A stretch of 64,000 bases of DNA from a phage. A model generated the notes under the pieces. That model was not told the DNA's origin. It searched no databases and worked only from the letters and a program-made list of their open reading frames with translations. This document shows positions 295 through 38,330 of this stretch, in pieces (the stretch's first letter is position 1; each line of letters starts with the position of its first letter). The translations under genes and the position numbers were made by a program. The stretch lies in the NCBI GenBank assembly GCA_029220445.1, contig GCA_029220445.1_3666.1. One strand, written 5' to 3'.

Positions 295-564
295 TTATTC
301 CTCTACAATCTCATACACATCAGGAGTTACAATCAACTCTTCTCCGTTACCCGGTGCAACAAACACCACCAAACCTTCAGGTGTGTGCTTTTTAGCCATC
401 TCGATAACATCTTCGCGCAGAGCTGGCTCCATCAGATCAAAACCTTCACCCAGGGCATCACTAACCACCTTCATATAGTCCACTGGTTGTGCTTCAACAA
501 TCATGCCTTCAACCAGTCCACAGTTTTTGTCTGCCAGCTCAGTTTTGAATAATTTAATTTTCAT
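295..564 (-). CDS. hypothetical small acidic protein ending ...YEIVEE
   Basis: 89-aa ORF in the tight minus-strand array; C-terminal EIVEE motif shared with neighbours. Confidence 0.5.
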   Translation of the reverse strand: MKIKLFKTELADKNCGLVEGMIVEAQPVDYMKVVSDALGEGFDLMEPALREDVIEMAKKHTPEGLVVFVAPGNGEELIVTPDVYEIVEE

Positions 565-701
565 TTAGAGGTCTCCTCAATTATTTGATATTAATAGCCG
601 TAACCTAACACATTAACTACAATTGCGATTGCAAACATAATTTCAAAGCATGCAATCTCTACATTTGGGACTAATTTCTTAATCACACCCATTGTAGCAC
701 C

Positions 702-1019
702 TCATTCTCCAAAGTCAATCTTTACTTTGCCTTTCCCCTTACCTTTCTTTCCACCACATTTAGCCAGCTGACGTGCTGCAACATCTACCATACGGTCAGT
801 TGCCTCGTAAGCATCACTGCCTTTAGCTTTGGCAATAACTTCTTTTCCAGAATTGTCAAAAATGAACGCCATAACTTCCTGGTGATCATTTTCAACTTTT
901 ACACTCACACGTGCATAGTTGGCAGAGGGGTGCAAACGCTCCAGCTTAGACATTTTGTGGGAAATGAAAGACACCATACCTTCAGTGATTTCTACGTTGC
1001 CAGTGATTTCAATTTGCAT
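702..1019 (-). CDS. ribosome hibernation promoting factor / RaiA-like protein (S30AE family)
   Basis: MQIEITGNVEITEGM...KLERL...VSVKVEN...GSDAYEATDRMVDVAARQLAK aligns by eye along its length with bacterial HPF/YfiA (MQLNITGNNVEITEAL...ARQLTK); AAGGAA Shine-Dalgarno upstream. Confidence 0.8.
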   Translation of the reverse strand: MQIEITGNVEITEGMVSFISHKMSKLERLHPSANYARVSVKVENDHQEVMAFIFDNSGKEVIAKAKGSDAYEATDRMVDVAARQLAKCGGKKGKGKGKVKIDFGE

Positions 1020-1101
1020 AACGTGTTCCTTTTAAAGAAGAGGGAACCAAACCCTCTTTGAAAACAATGATACTAAATCTGAAGCGTTGTGTCAACAGTT
1101 T

Positions 1102-1820: not shown

Positions 1821-2075
1821 TCACAGCTCTACAATATCTGCATCTGACCCTACCCCAAAGGCATAATAGGACTCTTCCCCGAAATAATATTCAGGTGCAC
1901 CAGCGGTGATCAGGTCTGATCCTAAGATAAACACCACGTTGTGGCCTACATAACTGTGATGTTGCCGCACAGGATCATCCCACGGCAACCCTTCAAAGTA
2001 TACCGCAGGGACGACCTTTCCTTTCAGGAAGGATTGCCCCAAGTAGACGTTAGAATCAAGAATTTTAACCTTCAT
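1821..2075 (-). CDS. small protein of the acidic-tail paralog family
   Basis: MKVKILDSNVYLGQ...GSDLITAGA...DIVEL; paralogous to 2065-2292 and 5624-5857. Confidence 0.5.
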   Translation of the reverse strand: MKVKILDSNVYLGQSFLKGKVVPAVYFEGLPWDDPVRQHHSYVGHNVVFILGSDLITAGAPEYYFGEESYYAFGVGSDADIVEL

Positions 2076-2292
2076 GATCGTCCTCCACTATCTCTACATC
2101 CTCACCTAGGGCAAAGTTGTAGGTCCACTGACTGTCAAAGCATTCCTGAGATGCACCAGCGGCAATAAGATCTGCCCCTTTTATTTTTAAAAGGTCAGGG
2201 TAATCTTCGTTAGGGACAGCAGTAAACACTTTCCCCACTAAAGGCTCCTGACCAATATAGAATCTTGAATCTAAAACTTTAACTTTCATCAA
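2065..2292 (-). CDS. small protein of the acidic-tail paralog family
   Basis: MMKVKVLDSRFYIGQ...KGADLIAAGA...EIVEDDHEG; tandem with 1821-2075. Confidence 0.5.
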   Translation of the reverse strand: MMKVKVLDSRFYIGQEPLVGKVFTAVPNEDYPDLLKIKGADLIAAGASQECFDSQWTYNFALGEDVEIVEDDHEG

Positions 2293-5093: not shown

Positions 5094-5627
5094 CTACAGA
5101 TGGTTGCTTATGGTGTCAAGAAAATTATCTCGTTCTTTCTCGGAGTTTTCACGGGTGTAGCTGAAAAACATATCTAGAATAACCTTATTGATATATTCCA
5201 GCTCCTCTGTGTTCAGGTACTTAGCAGGATCTACAATGACATCCCAAATATCATACAGACCACACTCATGATATCCATAACGCCACTCAATTGTCAAGCT
5301 GAGCGGCAAATCTTTACCGTCACAAACAACCTTCCATCTACATATGTTGGTATCTGGGCGTATCTGTGCACGGTATACCTGTACAAAATCCAATTTGAAT
5401 TTGAGGTATTCGTCATGCAATTTAAGCACAAAGCTCTCGATTTGTGGAGACACTTTTGCAGCAAACTGTGCGTATTTGTATTTGCACTGGATGATCTTTC
5501 TGCGTTTTGCAGTTAAATTTTTTGCCGCCAGTTGTTCTTCAGTGTATCTCCACCTACGATCAACAAACGCAACAGGGTCTTTGTCCCCATAGAGGTCTTC
5601 CCAGTTAATCAGAAGCATACCTGTCAC
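5094..5627 (-). CDS. hypothetical protein
   Basis: 177-aa ORF. Confidence 0.5.
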   Translation of the reverse strand: MTGMLLINWEDLYGDKDPVAFVDRRWRYTEEQLAAKNLTAKRRKIIQCKYKYAQFAAKVSPQIESFVLKLHDEYLKFKLDFVQVYRAQIRPDTNICRWKVVCDGKDLPLSLTIEWRYGYHECGLYDIWDVIVDPAKYLNTEELEYINKVILDMFFSYTRENSEKERDNFLDTISNHL

Positions 5628-5857
5628 TCCTCCACAACTTCAAGGCCTTTACCGCCTCGCTCTGGCAGATTACTTAAAGATAGGTAATACATATAATCAG
5701 GAGAGATCCTGCCAGACTCTGCACCTGCAGATAGTAAATCTTTTCCCTTAACCATGACAACATTATCGTTTGCAGATAGTCGTTTTGCTTCCACAATTTT
5801 ACCAACGCAGTCAACCAAGGAAGGGTACCCTAAATCTGTAAGAAATTTAACTTTCAT
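5624..5857 (-). CDS. small protein of the acidic-tail paralog family
   Basis: MKVKFLTDLGYPS...KGKDLLSAGA...GLEVVEE. Confidence 0.5.
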   Translation of the reverse strand: MKVKFLTDLGYPSLVDCVGKIVEAKRLSANDNVVMVKGKDLLSAGAESGRISPDYMYYLSLSNLPERGGKGLEVVEE

Positions 5858-37517: not shown

Positions 37518-37592
37518 GCCCTGTTAGCTTAGTGGATAAAGCAGCGGCCTTCTAAGCCGTTGACACTGGTTCGAGTCCAGTACGGGGTGCCA
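37518..37592 (+). tRNA. tRNA-Arg (anticodon TCT)
   Basis: manual fold: 7-bp acceptor, D arm GCTT/AAGC, anticodon loop CTTCTAA with U33, T loop TTCGAGT, encoded CCA. Confidence 0.8.
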
Positions 37593-37596
37593 AATT

Positions 37597-37683
37597 GGGG
37601 AGTTATCCCGTAGAGGTAGCGGTGTAGACTGTAAATCTATTGTCATTGCGACTCGGGTGGTTCGACTCCACCACTCCCCACCA
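37597..37683 (+). tRNA. tRNA-Tyr (anticodon GTA), class II with long variable arm
   Basis: perfect 7-bp acceptor GGGGAGT/ACTCCCC, anticodon loop CTGTAAA, T loop TTCGACT, encoded CCA. Confidence 0.8.
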
Positions 37684-37797
37684 AATTTATATTTTTAGAT
37701 GCATAAATAATACAGATAATGGCATTGATATTTATCGTCGTTTATACTAGTCACTAACTGCTCGAAAATCAGTGTCATTATCAGTATAATTTATAAA

Positions 37798-37888
37798 GGA
37801 GGGTAGGGAGCAATGGTGCTCAAGCGGTCTTGAAAACCGTCCCGTTGAGGATGACTCGATGATGGTTCGATTCCATTACTCTCCGCCA
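37798..37888 (+). tRNA. tRNA-Ser (anticodon TGA), class II with long variable arm
   Basis: acceptor GGAGGGT/ACTCTCC, anticodon loop CTTGAAA, 20-nt variable arm, T loop TTCGATT, encoded CCA. Confidence 0.75.
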
Positions 37889-37986
37889 CATTGTTGACCT
37901 TGTAATTAAGCGAAAGCCGGAAGCAGAACCGGATTATCAAATGTTACAGTCGTCATCGCCGACTAGCAACATGGTCAACATACTGA

Positions 37987-38083
37987 GCTAGGTAAGCCCT
38001 TTGGCAAGGGCGAGGATTTTTAATCCTGAAAATAGACGAGGTAGTCGTTGAATACATAGGTGGTTCGATTCCATCACCTAGCA
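37987..38083 (+). tRNA. tRNA-like element with aberrant anticodon arm (possible Lys-UUU variant or pseudo-tRNA)
   Basis: perfect 7-bp acceptor GCTAGGT/ACCTAGC, canonical D arm and T arm, but the anticodon-arm position is a 5-bp stem with a 5-nt loop TTTTA (or 4-bp stem with loop TTTTTAA) and about 30 extra nt precede the T arm; no encoded CCA. Confidence 0.35.
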
Positions 38084-38090
38084 CCTTTTT

Positions 38091-38166
38091 GCTGATGTAG
38101 CACAATCGGTAGTGCAATTGATTTGTAATCAATAGGTTGTAGGTTCAAGTCCTGCCATCAGCACCA
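38091..38166 (+). tRNA. tRNA-Thr (anticodon TGT)
   Basis: perfect acceptor GCTGATG/CATCAGC, anticodon loop TTTGTAA, T loop TTCAAGT, encoded CCA. Confidence 0.8.
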
Positions 38167-38167
38167 A

Positions 38168-38242
38168 GGCCCTGTAGCTGGAAGGTTCAAGCAAGCGACT
38201 CATAATCGCCAGACGGTGGTTCAATTCCACCCAGGGCCACCA
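38168..38242 (+). tRNA. tRNA with CAT anticodon (Met or lysidine-modified Ile)
   Basis: perfect acceptor GGCCCTG/CAGGGCC, anticodon loop CTCATAA, T loop TTCAATT, encoded CCA. Confidence 0.8.
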
Positions 38243-38253
38243 AATAGTAAATA

Positions 38254-38330
38254 CTCCGCGTAGCTCAGCTTGGTAGAGCGCCTGATTTGGGATCAGGAGG
38301 TCGAGTGTTCGAATCACTCCGTGGAGACCA
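38254..38330 (+). tRNA. tRNA-Pro (anticodon TGG)
   Basis: acceptor CTCCGCG/CGTGGAG, anticodon loop TTTGGGA with G37, T loop TTCGAAT, encoded CCA. Confidence 0.8.

What the first reader, a model, noticed from the sequence alone, without database searches (positions are those of the whole stretch)
702..1019. Phage-encoded ribosome hibernation factor homolog
The 105-aa product aligns along its length with bacterial HPF/RaiA (MQIEITGNVEITEGM..., ARQLAK), plus a Lys/Gly-rich C-terminal tail. A hibernation factor in a lytic phage early region would let the phage stabilise or silence host ribosomes during takeover. This is an uncommon auxiliary gene.
Basis: partly seen in the sequence, partly recalled or inferred. 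Interest (0 to 1): 0.7.

Follow-up and report, generated by a model that had tools for sequence, protein, structure and literature searches.

The report
Known rV5-phage ribosome hibernation factor homolog
This is a real, well conserved phage copy of the bacterial ribosome hibernation factor HPF, but it has been annotated since the rV5 genome and was described and tested in a 2019 paper, so the finding is correct and not new, and its actual function is still unproven.

Summary
The 105-aa ORF at 702..1019 (minus strand) exists as described. It is a significant member of the S30AE/HPF-YfiA family: Pfam PF02482 E=1.8e-12, above the curated cut-off; TIGR00741 above cut-off; best solved relative is E. 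coli HPF, residues 1-89 to 1-89. An AlphaFold model has the β-α-β-β-β-α fold (TM 0.8-0.9 to HPF structures) with a disordered basic tail.

The window is Escherichia phage PDX, an rV5-like Vequintavirus. The protein is 100% identical to rV5 gp144. That gene was deposited as 'sigma 54 modulation factor' and now carries HPF/RaiA labels in about 119 phage records. Mizuno et al. 2019 (Nat Commun) reported it as a phage HPF and expressed it in E. coli. They found it in lysate but not in high-salt-washed 70S/100S ribosomes, with no change in 100S.

New here:
- Two further syntenic uncultured phage lineages carry it (56-64% identity).
- Purifying selection is strong (pN/pS 0.05-0.14).
- A conserved σ70-type promoter lies upstream.
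- Several ribosome or tRNA contact residues of bacterial HPF are replaced (Lys80, Lys89, His55, Arg33, His95). Arg83 and Lys87 are kept, and new lysines appear.

Homology is certain; ribosome binding remains inferred. Already known; low interest.

The parts
702..1019 (-). CDS of 105 aa plus stop codon: the phage homolog of short ribosome hibernation promoting factor (rV5 gp144 / ABI79209, 100% identical)
   Evidence: ORF list; Pfam PF02482 E=1.8e-12; TIGR00741 above cut-off; E. coli HPF in PDB at E=5e-12; identical to the rV5 ORF 144 translation, with 0 nucleotide differences
759..1019 (-). S30AE core domain, residues 1-87 (β1 2-7, α1 13-29, β2 33-43, β3 46-55, β4 60-67, α2 70-92)
   Evidence: AlphaFold2 model with pLDDT 88-96 over residues 1-80. 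Foldseek: the top 35 PDB hits are all HPF/YfiA/pY. V. cholerae HPF 4hei gives TM 0.82/0.93 and rmsd 1.0 Å; E. coli HPF 6h4n_x gives TM 0.81/0.90
705..758 (-). Basic C-terminal tail, residues 88-105 (CGGKKGKGKGKVKIDFGE). It is 10 residues longer than E. coli HPF and is predicted disordered
   Evidence: pLDDT is below 50 for residues 91-105. Alignment to 43 bacterial HPFs that end ...KHKDKLKQH. Within the genus, changes in intact tails are mostly synonymous, e.g. 6 synonymous against 1 non-synonymous in L006. The tail sequence differs in the sister lineages P0004 and P0012 but stays basic. Frameshifted variants occur in APCEc02 and Murica
1067..1095 (-). σ70-type promoter-like site, TTGACA-17 nt-TATCAT (11 of 12 matches). 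It corresponds to promoter P144 annotated in the rV5 record
   Evidence: Consensus scan. rV5 annotation 'Sigma70-type promoter; P144' directly upstream of ORF 144. TTGACA and the -10 hexamer are conserved in 10 Vequintavirus relatives, and a TTGACA is also present upstream in the divergent lineage L002. Consensus match only; activity was not tested
1027..1031 (-). Shine-Dalgarno sequence AAGGA, 7 nt before the ATG
   Evidence: Read from the sequence. A ribosome binding site is annotated at the same place in phage Murica
1038..1058 (-). 7-bp hairpin (AAGAGGG-N7-CCCTCTT) near the predicted 5' end of the transcript, between the promoter and the Shine-Dalgarno sequence. Its role is uncertain: a 5' stabiliser, or a weak terminator of the upstream gene
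   Evidence: RNA fold gives -9.9 kcal/mol, but z = -0.94 against shuffles, so it is not statistically unusual. A hairpin is present with sequence variation in relatives

Best explanation
The ORF encodes the Vequintavirus (rV5-like phage) homolog of the short bacterial ribosome hibernation promoting factor. It was derived long ago from a gammaproteobacterial, Enterobacterales-like hpf and has been kept as a core gene of the genus. I put that identity at about 0.97.

The most likely mechanism is inferred, not shown. The gene is transcribed by host σ70 RNA polymerase from its own promoter in the non-structural gene block. The protein then binds vacant host 30S/70S ribosomes in the mRNA/tRNA channel between head and body, as HPF and YfiA do.

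Binding would use the retained α1/α2 residues (Lys25, Arg83, Lys87, Lys91 in phage numbering), the clade-specific lysines on β4 (Lys59, Lys64, Lys66) and the basic tail. Three features point to a salt-labile, YfiA-like '70S-type' parking or protection of idle ribosomes rather than RMF-dependent 100S formation:
- the E-site tRNA contact (Arg33) and the G693 stacking contact (His95) of E. coli HPF are absent;
- Lys80 and His55 are replaced;
- the tail is longer than in HPF.

The benefit to the phage would be to keep the ribosome pool intact, for example shielded from ribonucleases, and available during takeover or in slow-growing hosts.
For: Family membership:
- Searches give profile and PDB E-values of about 1e-12.
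- The predicted fold matches HPF structures at rmsd 1.0-1.1 Å, and only HPF/YfiA/pY chains are significant hits.

The gene is functional, not a relic:
- It is present in 119 of 122 phage records that match the region.
- It is syntenic in two further uncultured lineages at 64% and 56% identity.
- Core pN/pS is 0.05-0.14 within the genus. Between lineages pN is 0.22-0.25 while pS (about 0.8) is saturated.

Expression signal:
- A conserved σ70-type promoter and a Shine-Dalgarno sequence lie upstream.
- The gene sits in unit 82-163 with DNA-metabolism genes, away from late genes 27-66 (PMC3606486).

RNA-binding surface:
- Lys26, Arg83 and Lys87 (E. coli numbering) are kept in all three lineages, Gln29 becomes Arg, and there are clade-conserved gains of Lys59, Lys64, Lys66, Arg28 and Arg37.
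- There are 17-19 Lys+Arg against 12 in an enterobacterial HPF from the alignment (P0010).
- The contact roles of these positions come from bioRxiv 382572 and bioRxiv 2025.10.07.680626.

Other support:
- The YfiA tail is reported to run toward the RMF site, which supports the inference about a longer tail.
- The abstract of PMC7913689 says hibernation factors block ribonucleases.
Against: Direct test: the identical rV5 protein, expressed from pBAD24 in E. coli NM522, was detected in the crude extract but not in purified 70S or 100S ribosomes, and it did not change the 100S peak (PMC6375957). That test used cells at OD600 1 and a 500 mM NH4Cl cushion. The authors themselves list growth phase and salt stripping as possible causes.

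Residue evidence: positions called strictly conserved ribosome contacts in Gram-negative HPF/YfiA are replaced in all three phage lineages. These are Lys80 to V/T/I (100% Lys in 43 bacterial sequences), Lys89 to G/S/N, His55 to Phe, Thr53 to F/R/R and Arg33 to S/T/T, and there is no C-terminal His95.

Scores: the HPF equivalog model is far below its cut-off (55.8 against 125 bits).

No expression or timing data for this gene were found.
Confidence: 0.45

Rival explanations
1. Anti-hibernation antagonist (the hypothesis raised by Mizuno et al.). The phage protein competes with host HPF/YfiA/RMF for the same site but does not support 100S formation. It dissociates easily, so ribosomes of starved or defence-arrested hosts stay available, or become available, for phage mRNA.
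For: The hypothesis is stated in PMC6375957. The residues through which E. coli HPF holds E-site tRNA and stacks on G693 (Arg33, His95) are lost, as are Lys80 and Lys89, which fits weaker and reversible binding. The tail is longer and basic, like that of YfiA, which is reported to head toward the RMF site and to antagonise 100S formation. 100S did not increase on expression.
Against: No decrease in 100S was reported either, and no ribosome association was detected at all. A competitor must still bind, so the same negative result counts against it. No data show that rV5-like phages infect stationary-phase cells better.
Confidence: 0.2
2. Exapted fold: the protein no longer binds ribosomes. The conserved S30AE scaffold with a re-patterned basic surface and tail binds another nucleic acid or protein target, for example a phage or host RNA.
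For: No ribosome association was seen for the identical protein. Contact residues invariant in bacteria are replaced systematically in all three phage lineages, while fold-core residues are kept (G7, F18, L26, V42, A51, G58, A63, D69, Y71, D75, D79). Different, clade-conserved basic residues have been gained. The equivalog models for HPF and RaiA are not reached.
Against: Arg83, Lys87 and Lys26 of the known rRNA-binding track are retained under strong purifying selection. Every structurally characterised member of this fold family in the PDB hit list is a ribosome-bound or ribosome-binding factor. The high-salt preparation could have stripped the protein.
Confidence: 0.28
3. Neutral passenger: a recently captured host gene with no role for the phage.
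For: Mizuno et al. suggested a relatively recent transfer on the basis of alignment conservation.
Against: The protein is only 38-45% identical to any Enterobacterales HPF. In an exhaustive search of 1.84 billion representatives, only the sister phage lineage scored below E=1e-10. The gene is present in essentially every Vequintavirus record and in two divergent syntenic lineages. pN/pS is 0.05-0.14.
Confidence: 0.02

Closest known systems
E. coli / Enterobacterales short HPF (YhbH; PDB 2rql, 6h4n chain x; NCBIfam NF007780)
   Same: Same single-domain β-α-β-β-β-α fold, collinear from residue 1 to about 89. Identity is 40-45%. It is the best hit in the PDB by both sequence and structure. Lys26, Arg83 and Lys87 and the fold-core residues are retained.
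   Different: It scores 55.8 bits against the equivalog cut-off of 125. Lys80, Lys89, His55, Thr53 and Arg33 are replaced, and there is no terminal His95. The tail is 10 residues longer and Lys/Gly-rich. It is phage-encoded with its own σ70-type promoter rather than sitting in a host operon. No 100S promotion was seen on expression.
E. coli YfiA / RaiA (protein Y; PDB 4v8i, 1n3g; NCBIfam NF007654)
   Same: Same fold and the same expected binding site. It has a C-terminal extension beyond the HPF length. The inferred 70S-type (non-100S) behaviour would resemble YfiA. RefSeq labels the phage protein 'RaiA'.
   Different: Sequence similarity is much weaker than to HPF: 17.6 bits against a cut-off of 158, and PDB E-values of 0.35-0.78. 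The tail is shorter and differs in sequence. The RaiA label is therefore less well supported than 'HPF-like'.
S30AE proteins of jumbo phages (Cronobacter phage GAP32, Escherichia phage PBECO4; phrog_8990)
   Same: Also phage-encoded members of the same fold family.
   Different: They share only 18-22% identity in the structural alignment and fall in a different PHROG: phrog_8990, E=1.5e-6, against phrog_12469, E=7.5e-71, for this clade. tblastn did not recover them at E<=1e-3, so they are most likely independent acquisitions.
Other phage-encoded ribosomal proteins (bS21 of pelagiphage HTVC008M, bL12 of Salmonella phage FSL SP-076)
   Same: They belong to the same class of 'translation-machinery auxiliary genes' and were described in the same paper (PMC6375957).
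   Different: Those two were shown to be incorporated into E. coli ribosomes. The rV5 HPF homolog was not.

Membership tests
Ribosomal_S30AE / HPF-YfiA superfamily (Pfam PF02482; NCBIfam TIGR00741) | Profile match above the curated whole-protein threshold, covering the full domain | tested here: met
   PF02482 scores 48.3 bits against 23.7, E=1.8e-12, model positions 1-83 of 88. TIGR00741 scores 45.9 bits against 40.9. The sister-lineage proteins P0004 and P0012 also pass, at 50.6 and 49.8 bits.
Ribosomal_S30AE / HPF-YfiA superfamily | β-α-β-β-β-α fold | tested here: met
   The AF2 model (pLDDT 83.9, pTM 0.73) has elements E2-7, H13-29, E33-43, E46-55, E60-67, H70-92. The 35 Foldseek hits at E<=1e-3 are all HPF/YfiA/pY, with best TM 0.82/0.93 and rmsd 1.0 Å. 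Caveat: this is a prediction made with an alignment of family members.
Ribosomal_S30AE / HPF-YfiA superfamily | Binds the 30S subunit in the A/P-site mRNA-tRNA channel | not testable with these tools
   Literature only. The identical rV5 protein was not found in 70S/100S ribosomes purified through 500 mM NH4Cl from cells at OD600 1 (PMC6375957). Those conditions make the result inconclusive.
Gammaproteobacterial short HPF (equivalog NF007780 / PRK10470) | Equivalog-level profile score | tested here: not met
   55.8 bits against a cut-off of 125.
Gammaproteobacterial short HPF | Strictly conserved basic track on α2 (Lys80, Arg83, Lys87, Lys89, Lys91) that contacts 16S rRNA | tested here: not met
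   Arg83 and Lys87 are kept in all three phage lineages. Lys91 is kept only in the window lineage. Lys80 becomes V/T/I and Lys89 becomes G/S/N. The roles of these residues come from bioRxiv 2025.10.07.680626.
Gammaproteobacterial short HPF | Contacts to E-site tRNA (Arg33, Lys93), C-terminal His95 stacking on G693, and the His55/Glu60 pair to the uS9 C-terminus | tested here: not met
   Arg33 becomes S/T/T, His55 becomes Phe, Glu60 becomes E/V/V, and there is no terminal His; the protein ends ...VKIDFGE. The roles of these residues come from bioRxiv 382572 and bioRxiv 2025.10.07.680626.
Gammaproteobacterial short HPF | Promotes or stabilises RMF-dependent 100S dimers | not testable with these tools
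YfiA / RaiA (equivalog NF007654 / PRK10324) | Equivalog-level profile score and a YfiA-type C-terminal tail | tested here: not met
   17.6 bits against a cut-off of 158. PDB YfiA chains score E=0.35-0.78 against 5e-12 for HPF. The tail is longer than in HPF but is not alignable to YfiA.
Long HPF (Gram-positive type, with a C-terminal dimerisation domain) | A second, C-terminal domain of about 60 residues after a linker | tested here: not met
   The protein is 105 aa. Residues 91-105 are a disordered tail with no second domain. Long HPFs (about 160-190 aa in the PDB hit list, e.g. 8uu4_w, 5nd8_v) match only through their N-terminal domain.

The most novel reading that the evidence does not exclude
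The phage protein may be a re-engineered hibernation factor. In this reading it still docks in the decoding channel but through a redistributed interface: β4 lysines and a long basic tail replace Lys80, Lys89, His55 and His95. It would bind reversibly and block RMF/100S formation or ribonuclease and toxin access, so that the phage either wakes or shields host ribosomes, for example in stationary-phase gut E. coli. That would be a viral counter-measure aimed at ribosome hibernation or at ribosome-targeting defence.
Probability: 0.25. Interest if true: 0.6.

Novelty: already known. Interest (0 to 1): 0.22.

Why it matters
A virus that carries a hibernation-factor homolog hints that phages manipulate the idle-ribosome pool of their hosts. 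That bears on how lytic phages cope with slow-growing or starved gut E. coli, which matters for phage therapy, where rV5-like phages are widely used. The gene itself is documented, and the open question is its function. The only experiment so far was negative under stringent conditions. The residue pattern found here, with some canonical contacts lost and new basic residues and a basic tail gained, shows that the protein should not be assumed to act like host HPF. It also points to specific mutants and assay conditions to try.

Tried and rejected
- RaiA assignment, as in RefSeq. Rejected as the best label: the RaiA equivalog scores 17.6 bits against 55.8 for HPF, and YfiA chains in the PDB score E>0.3.
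- Recent capture from the host. Rejected: identity to Enterobacterales HPF is at most 45%, and only the sister phage lineage falls below E=1e-10 among 1.84 billion representatives.
- A regulatory 5'-UTR hairpin at 1038..1058. It is present, but its folding energy is not unusual (z=-0.94), so no claim is made.
- A second S30AE gene next door. ORF 295..564 is labelled 'sigma 54 modulation factor' in some records, but it has no Pfam match and belongs to an unrelated PHROG of unknown function. This is a mislabel.
- IMG/VR scan for more relatives. It returned only 2 loci, which was of little use. The divergent lineages came from the protein database and contig look-ups instead.
- P0122, a 1160-aa repeat protein, at E=2.9e-9 in the representative search. 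It matches only query residues 35-81, over 8 repeated stretches of an unrelated repeat protein, so I treated it as spurious.
- Literature searches for functional work on phage HPF after 2019, or for Vequintavirus transcriptomes. Nothing relevant was found.
- Overlapping ORFs on the opposite strand or in other frames (882..1061 +, 919..1035 +, 785..895 -). There is no support for them, and they lie inside a coding sequence under strong purifying selection.

Full report
**Observation**

The window carries a 105-codon ORF on the minus strand, with ATG at 1019..1017 and the stop at 704..702. An AAGGA Shine-Dalgarno sequence lies 7 nt upstream.

**Is the resemblance to HPF real?**

Yes.
- Pfam Ribosomal_S30AE (PF02482) matches residues 3-88 over model positions 1-83 of 88, at E=1.8e-12 and 48.3 bits against a gathering score of 23.7.
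- NCBIfam TIGR00741 (HPF/YfiA family) passes its cut-off, 45.9 against 40.9 bits. The equivalog models for HPF (55.8 against 125) and RaiA (17.6 against 158) do not.
- Against PDB sequences the best matches are E. coli HPF (2rql, 4v8h, 6h4n) at E=5e-12 to 2.5e-11, collinear 1-89 to 1-89. YfiA chains score only E=0.35-0.78.
- An AlphaFold2 model built on an alignment with 43 bacterial HPFs and two phage relatives has pLDDT 83.9. It shows β-α-β-β-β-α topology and a disordered tail over residues 91-105.
- In Foldseek all 35 significant PDB hits are HPF/YfiA/pY. V. cholerae HPF gives TM 0.82/0.93 at rmsd 1.0 Å, and E. coli HPF from the hibernating ribosome 6h4n gives TM 0.81/0.90.

The protein is therefore a genuine member of the S30AE superfamily, closer to short HPF than to YfiA/RaiA.

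**Where it comes from and whether it is known**

The first 6 kb of the window are 99.9% identical to Escherichia phage PDX and 95-99% identical to many rV5-like phages of the genus Vequintavirus.
- tblastn finds the protein in 119 phage records, 118 of them at 94% identity or more; the remaining record is a Salmonella genome contig.
- The rV5 copy (DQ832317 ORF 144, ABI79209) is identical at every nucleotide.
- It was deposited as 'sigma 54 modulation factor'. It is now variously labelled 'ribosome hibernation promoting factor', 'RaiA' and 'ribosome hibernation factor'.
- Mizuno et al. 2019 (Nat Commun, PMC6375957) list it in their Table 1 as a phage HPF and discuss its phylogeny.
- Mathieu et al. 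2020 (PMC6969025) record hpf as an auxiliary gene of their five rV5-like isolates.

The finding is therefore already known.

**Published functional test**

Mizuno et al. synthesised the rV5 gene and expressed it from pBAD24 in E. coli NM522. They grew cells to OD600 1 and pelleted ribosomes through a 500 mM NH4Cl/1.1 M sucrose cushion, then ran a 10-50% gradient. Mass spectrometry found four HPF peptides in the crude extract but none in the 70S/100S fractions, and the 100S peak was unchanged. In the same experiments bS21 and bL12 from other phages were incorporated.

The authors list inadequate growth phase, salt stripping or genuine loss of binding as possible explanations. This weighs against, but does not refute, ribosome binding. 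HPF-type factors bind vacant ribosomes, and a high-salt cushion is designed to remove loosely bound factors; this last point is my own background knowledge.

**New evidence gathered here: distribution and selection**

- Two further phage lineages carry the gene at the same place, in a long co-directional array of small ORFs. They are known only from assemblies, on contigs of up to 137 kb. P0004 has 103 aa and 64% identity; P0012 has 104 aa and 56% identity. Both pass Pfam.
- Between lineages, synonymous sites are saturated (pS about 0.8) while pN in the core is 0.22-0.25.
- Within the genus, core pN/pS is 0.05-0.14. In relatives with an intact tail, changes in the tail are mostly synonymous, for example 6 synonymous against 1 non-synonymous in L006.
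- The nearest cellular proteins are Enterobacterales short HPFs at only 38-45% identity.
- In an exhaustive phmmer run over 1.84 billion representatives, only the sister phage lineage scored below E=1e-10.

The gene is therefore an old, selectively maintained core gene of this phage group, not a recent passenger. That qualifies the 'relatively recent' transfer suggested in PMC6375957.

**New evidence gathered here: expression signals**

A TTGACA-17-TATCAT promoter-like site at 1095..1067 (11 of 12 matches) coincides with promoter P144 of the rV5 record. It is conserved in ten relatives, and the divergent lineage also has a TTGACA upstream. The rV5 genome paper places the gene in transcription unit 82-163 together with nucleotide-metabolism and replication genes, while late genes are 27-66 (PMC3606486). 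'Early or middle' expression is thus a reasonable inference. No transcriptome was found.

**New evidence gathered here: residue-level comparison**

The roles of contact residues come from the E. coli hibernating-ribosome structure (bioRxiv 382572) and a 2025 comparison of Gram-negative HPF/YfiA complexes (bioRxiv 2025.10.07.680626). I tabulated those positions against 43 bacterial HPFs.

| Status in the three phage lineages | Positions (E. coli numbering) |
|---|---|
| Kept in all three | Lys26, Arg83, Lys87; Gln29 becomes Arg |
| Replaced in all three | Lys80 (100% Lys in bacteria) to V/T/I; Lys89 to G/S/N; His55 to Phe; Thr53 to F/R/R; Arg33 to S/T/T; His62 to I/M/L |
| Kept only in the window lineage | Glu60, Lys91 |
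| Absent | C-terminal His95, which stacks on G693 in E. coli |
| Clade-conserved basic residues gained | Arg28, Arg37, Lys59, Lys64, Lys66 |

Lys64 and Lys66 lie on β4. The 2025 preprint names β4 and α2 as the elements commonly involved in ribosome binding by both HPF and YfiA, and their i, i+2 spacing with Glu60 and His62 suggests they share a face with those contact residues; this is my inference.

The tails differ in sequence: KCGGKKGKGKGKVKIDFGE, KYSKSKGIDKRTAKWDY and KSNLTKSRRASKQEITLY. All are basic and are 8-10 residues longer than the bacterial KHKDKLKQH. The invariant positions shared with bacteria are mostly fold-core residues: G7, F18, L26, V42, A51, G58, A63, D69, Y71, D75 and D79.

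**Interpretation**

The scaffold and a positively charged surface are under strong selection, but the specific HPF contact set is only partly retained.

My best reading, at about 0.45, is a salt-labile, YfiA-like occupant of the decoding channel of idle ribosomes. It would park or shield them, and given the longer tail and the lack of a 100S effect it would not drive RMF-dependent dimerisation.

The rivals are:
- an antagonist of host hibernation, as Mizuno et al. proposed (about 0.2);
- an exapted fold with a non-ribosomal target (about 0.28);
- a neutral passenger, which the distribution and selection data effectively exclude.

**Comparison with known families**

The protein is a member of the S30AE superfamily, because the sequence threshold and the fold are both met. 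It should not be filed as an HPF or RaiA equivalog. The equivalog scores are not met, three of the five 'strictly conserved' α2 basic residues are missing in at least some lineages, the HPF-specific contacts to E-site tRNA and G693 are missing, and there is no second domain as in long HPFs.

Other phage S30AE proteins, in the jumbo phages GAP32 and PBECO4 (phrog_8990), share only 18-22% identity in the structural alignment and look like separate acquisitions.

**Verdict**

The gene is already annotated and published, so interest is low. The residual value lies in the unresolved function and in the altered contact pattern described here.

Noticed in passing
window 295..564 (-): The 89-aa ORF two genes downstream of the HPF homolog is labelled 'sigma 54 modulation factor' in several GenBank records (APCEc02_082, nomo_102, and a second such label in nimi and pangalan). 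It has no Pfam match and belongs to phrog_11868 of unknown function. This looks like a propagated mis-annotation. Conversely, the true HPF homolog is labelled 'ATP-dependent protease La Type I' in OR062525, OR062530 and the MT884008/10 records.
   Followed up: yes
phage records MG065635-MG065690: Eighteen records named 'Campylobacter phage' (host C. jejuni) are 96-99% identical to E. coli rV5-like phages over this 6-kb region and carry the same HPF gene. They are probably coliphage contaminants or mislabelled records.
   Followed up: no
window 37518..38330 (+): A cluster of seven tRNA genes called by ARAGORN (Arg-TCT, Tyr, Ser, Thr, Met, Pro). It includes an odd 97-99-nt tRNA at 37987..38085 that ARAGORN calls with a four-base anticodon 'atcc'. 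That tRNA passes the Rfam tRNA threshold only modestly (35.5 bits against 29). tRNA-Ser at 37798..37888 was not recovered by Rfam at gathering score.
   Followed up: partly
window 1821..2075 (-), 2065..2292 (-), possibly 5624..5857 (-): Tandem paralogous small ORFs. Both of the first two match phrog_5009 and begin MKVK(I/V)LDS.... A third ORF (MKVKFLTDLGY...) looks similar by eye. This would be a small duplicated gene family of unknown function in the same block.
   Followed up: partly
window 591..692 (-): A conserved 33-aa hydrophobic ORF (phrog_15151, E=6e-26) lies immediately downstream of the HPF homolog. A σ70-like site (TTGACT-16-TACAAT, TG-extended) at 718..691 overlaps the end of the HPF gene. 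It may be a small membrane peptide with its own promoter.
   Followed up: no
L011 (APCEc02) 301..606 and L012 (Murica) 301..600; window equivalent about 705..750: The GGn/AAr repeat that encodes the GKGKGK tail is frameshifted or truncated in two deposited genomes (…KCGRKKGKGERQSKD, 101 aa; …GKGKAK, 99 aa) and in protein cluster P0003. These are either sequencing errors in a simple repeat or natural tail variants. If real, the exact tail sequence is dispensable.
   Followed up: partly
L008, L010, L012 (nomo, V18, Murica) codon 8-9: Some Vequintavirus copies have an extra Asn (MQIEITGNNVEITEG, 106 aa). This restores the residue that bacterial HPFs have at position 8, which is a ribosome-contact position (His8) in E. 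hormaechei and P. aeruginosa HPF according to bioRxiv 2025.10.07.680626.
   Followed up: no
search result P0122: A 1160-aa bacterial repeat protein scored E=2.9e-9 against residues 35-81 of the query in eight repeated stretches. It has no S30AE architecture, and I judged the match to be a repeat-driven artefact.
   Followed up: partly
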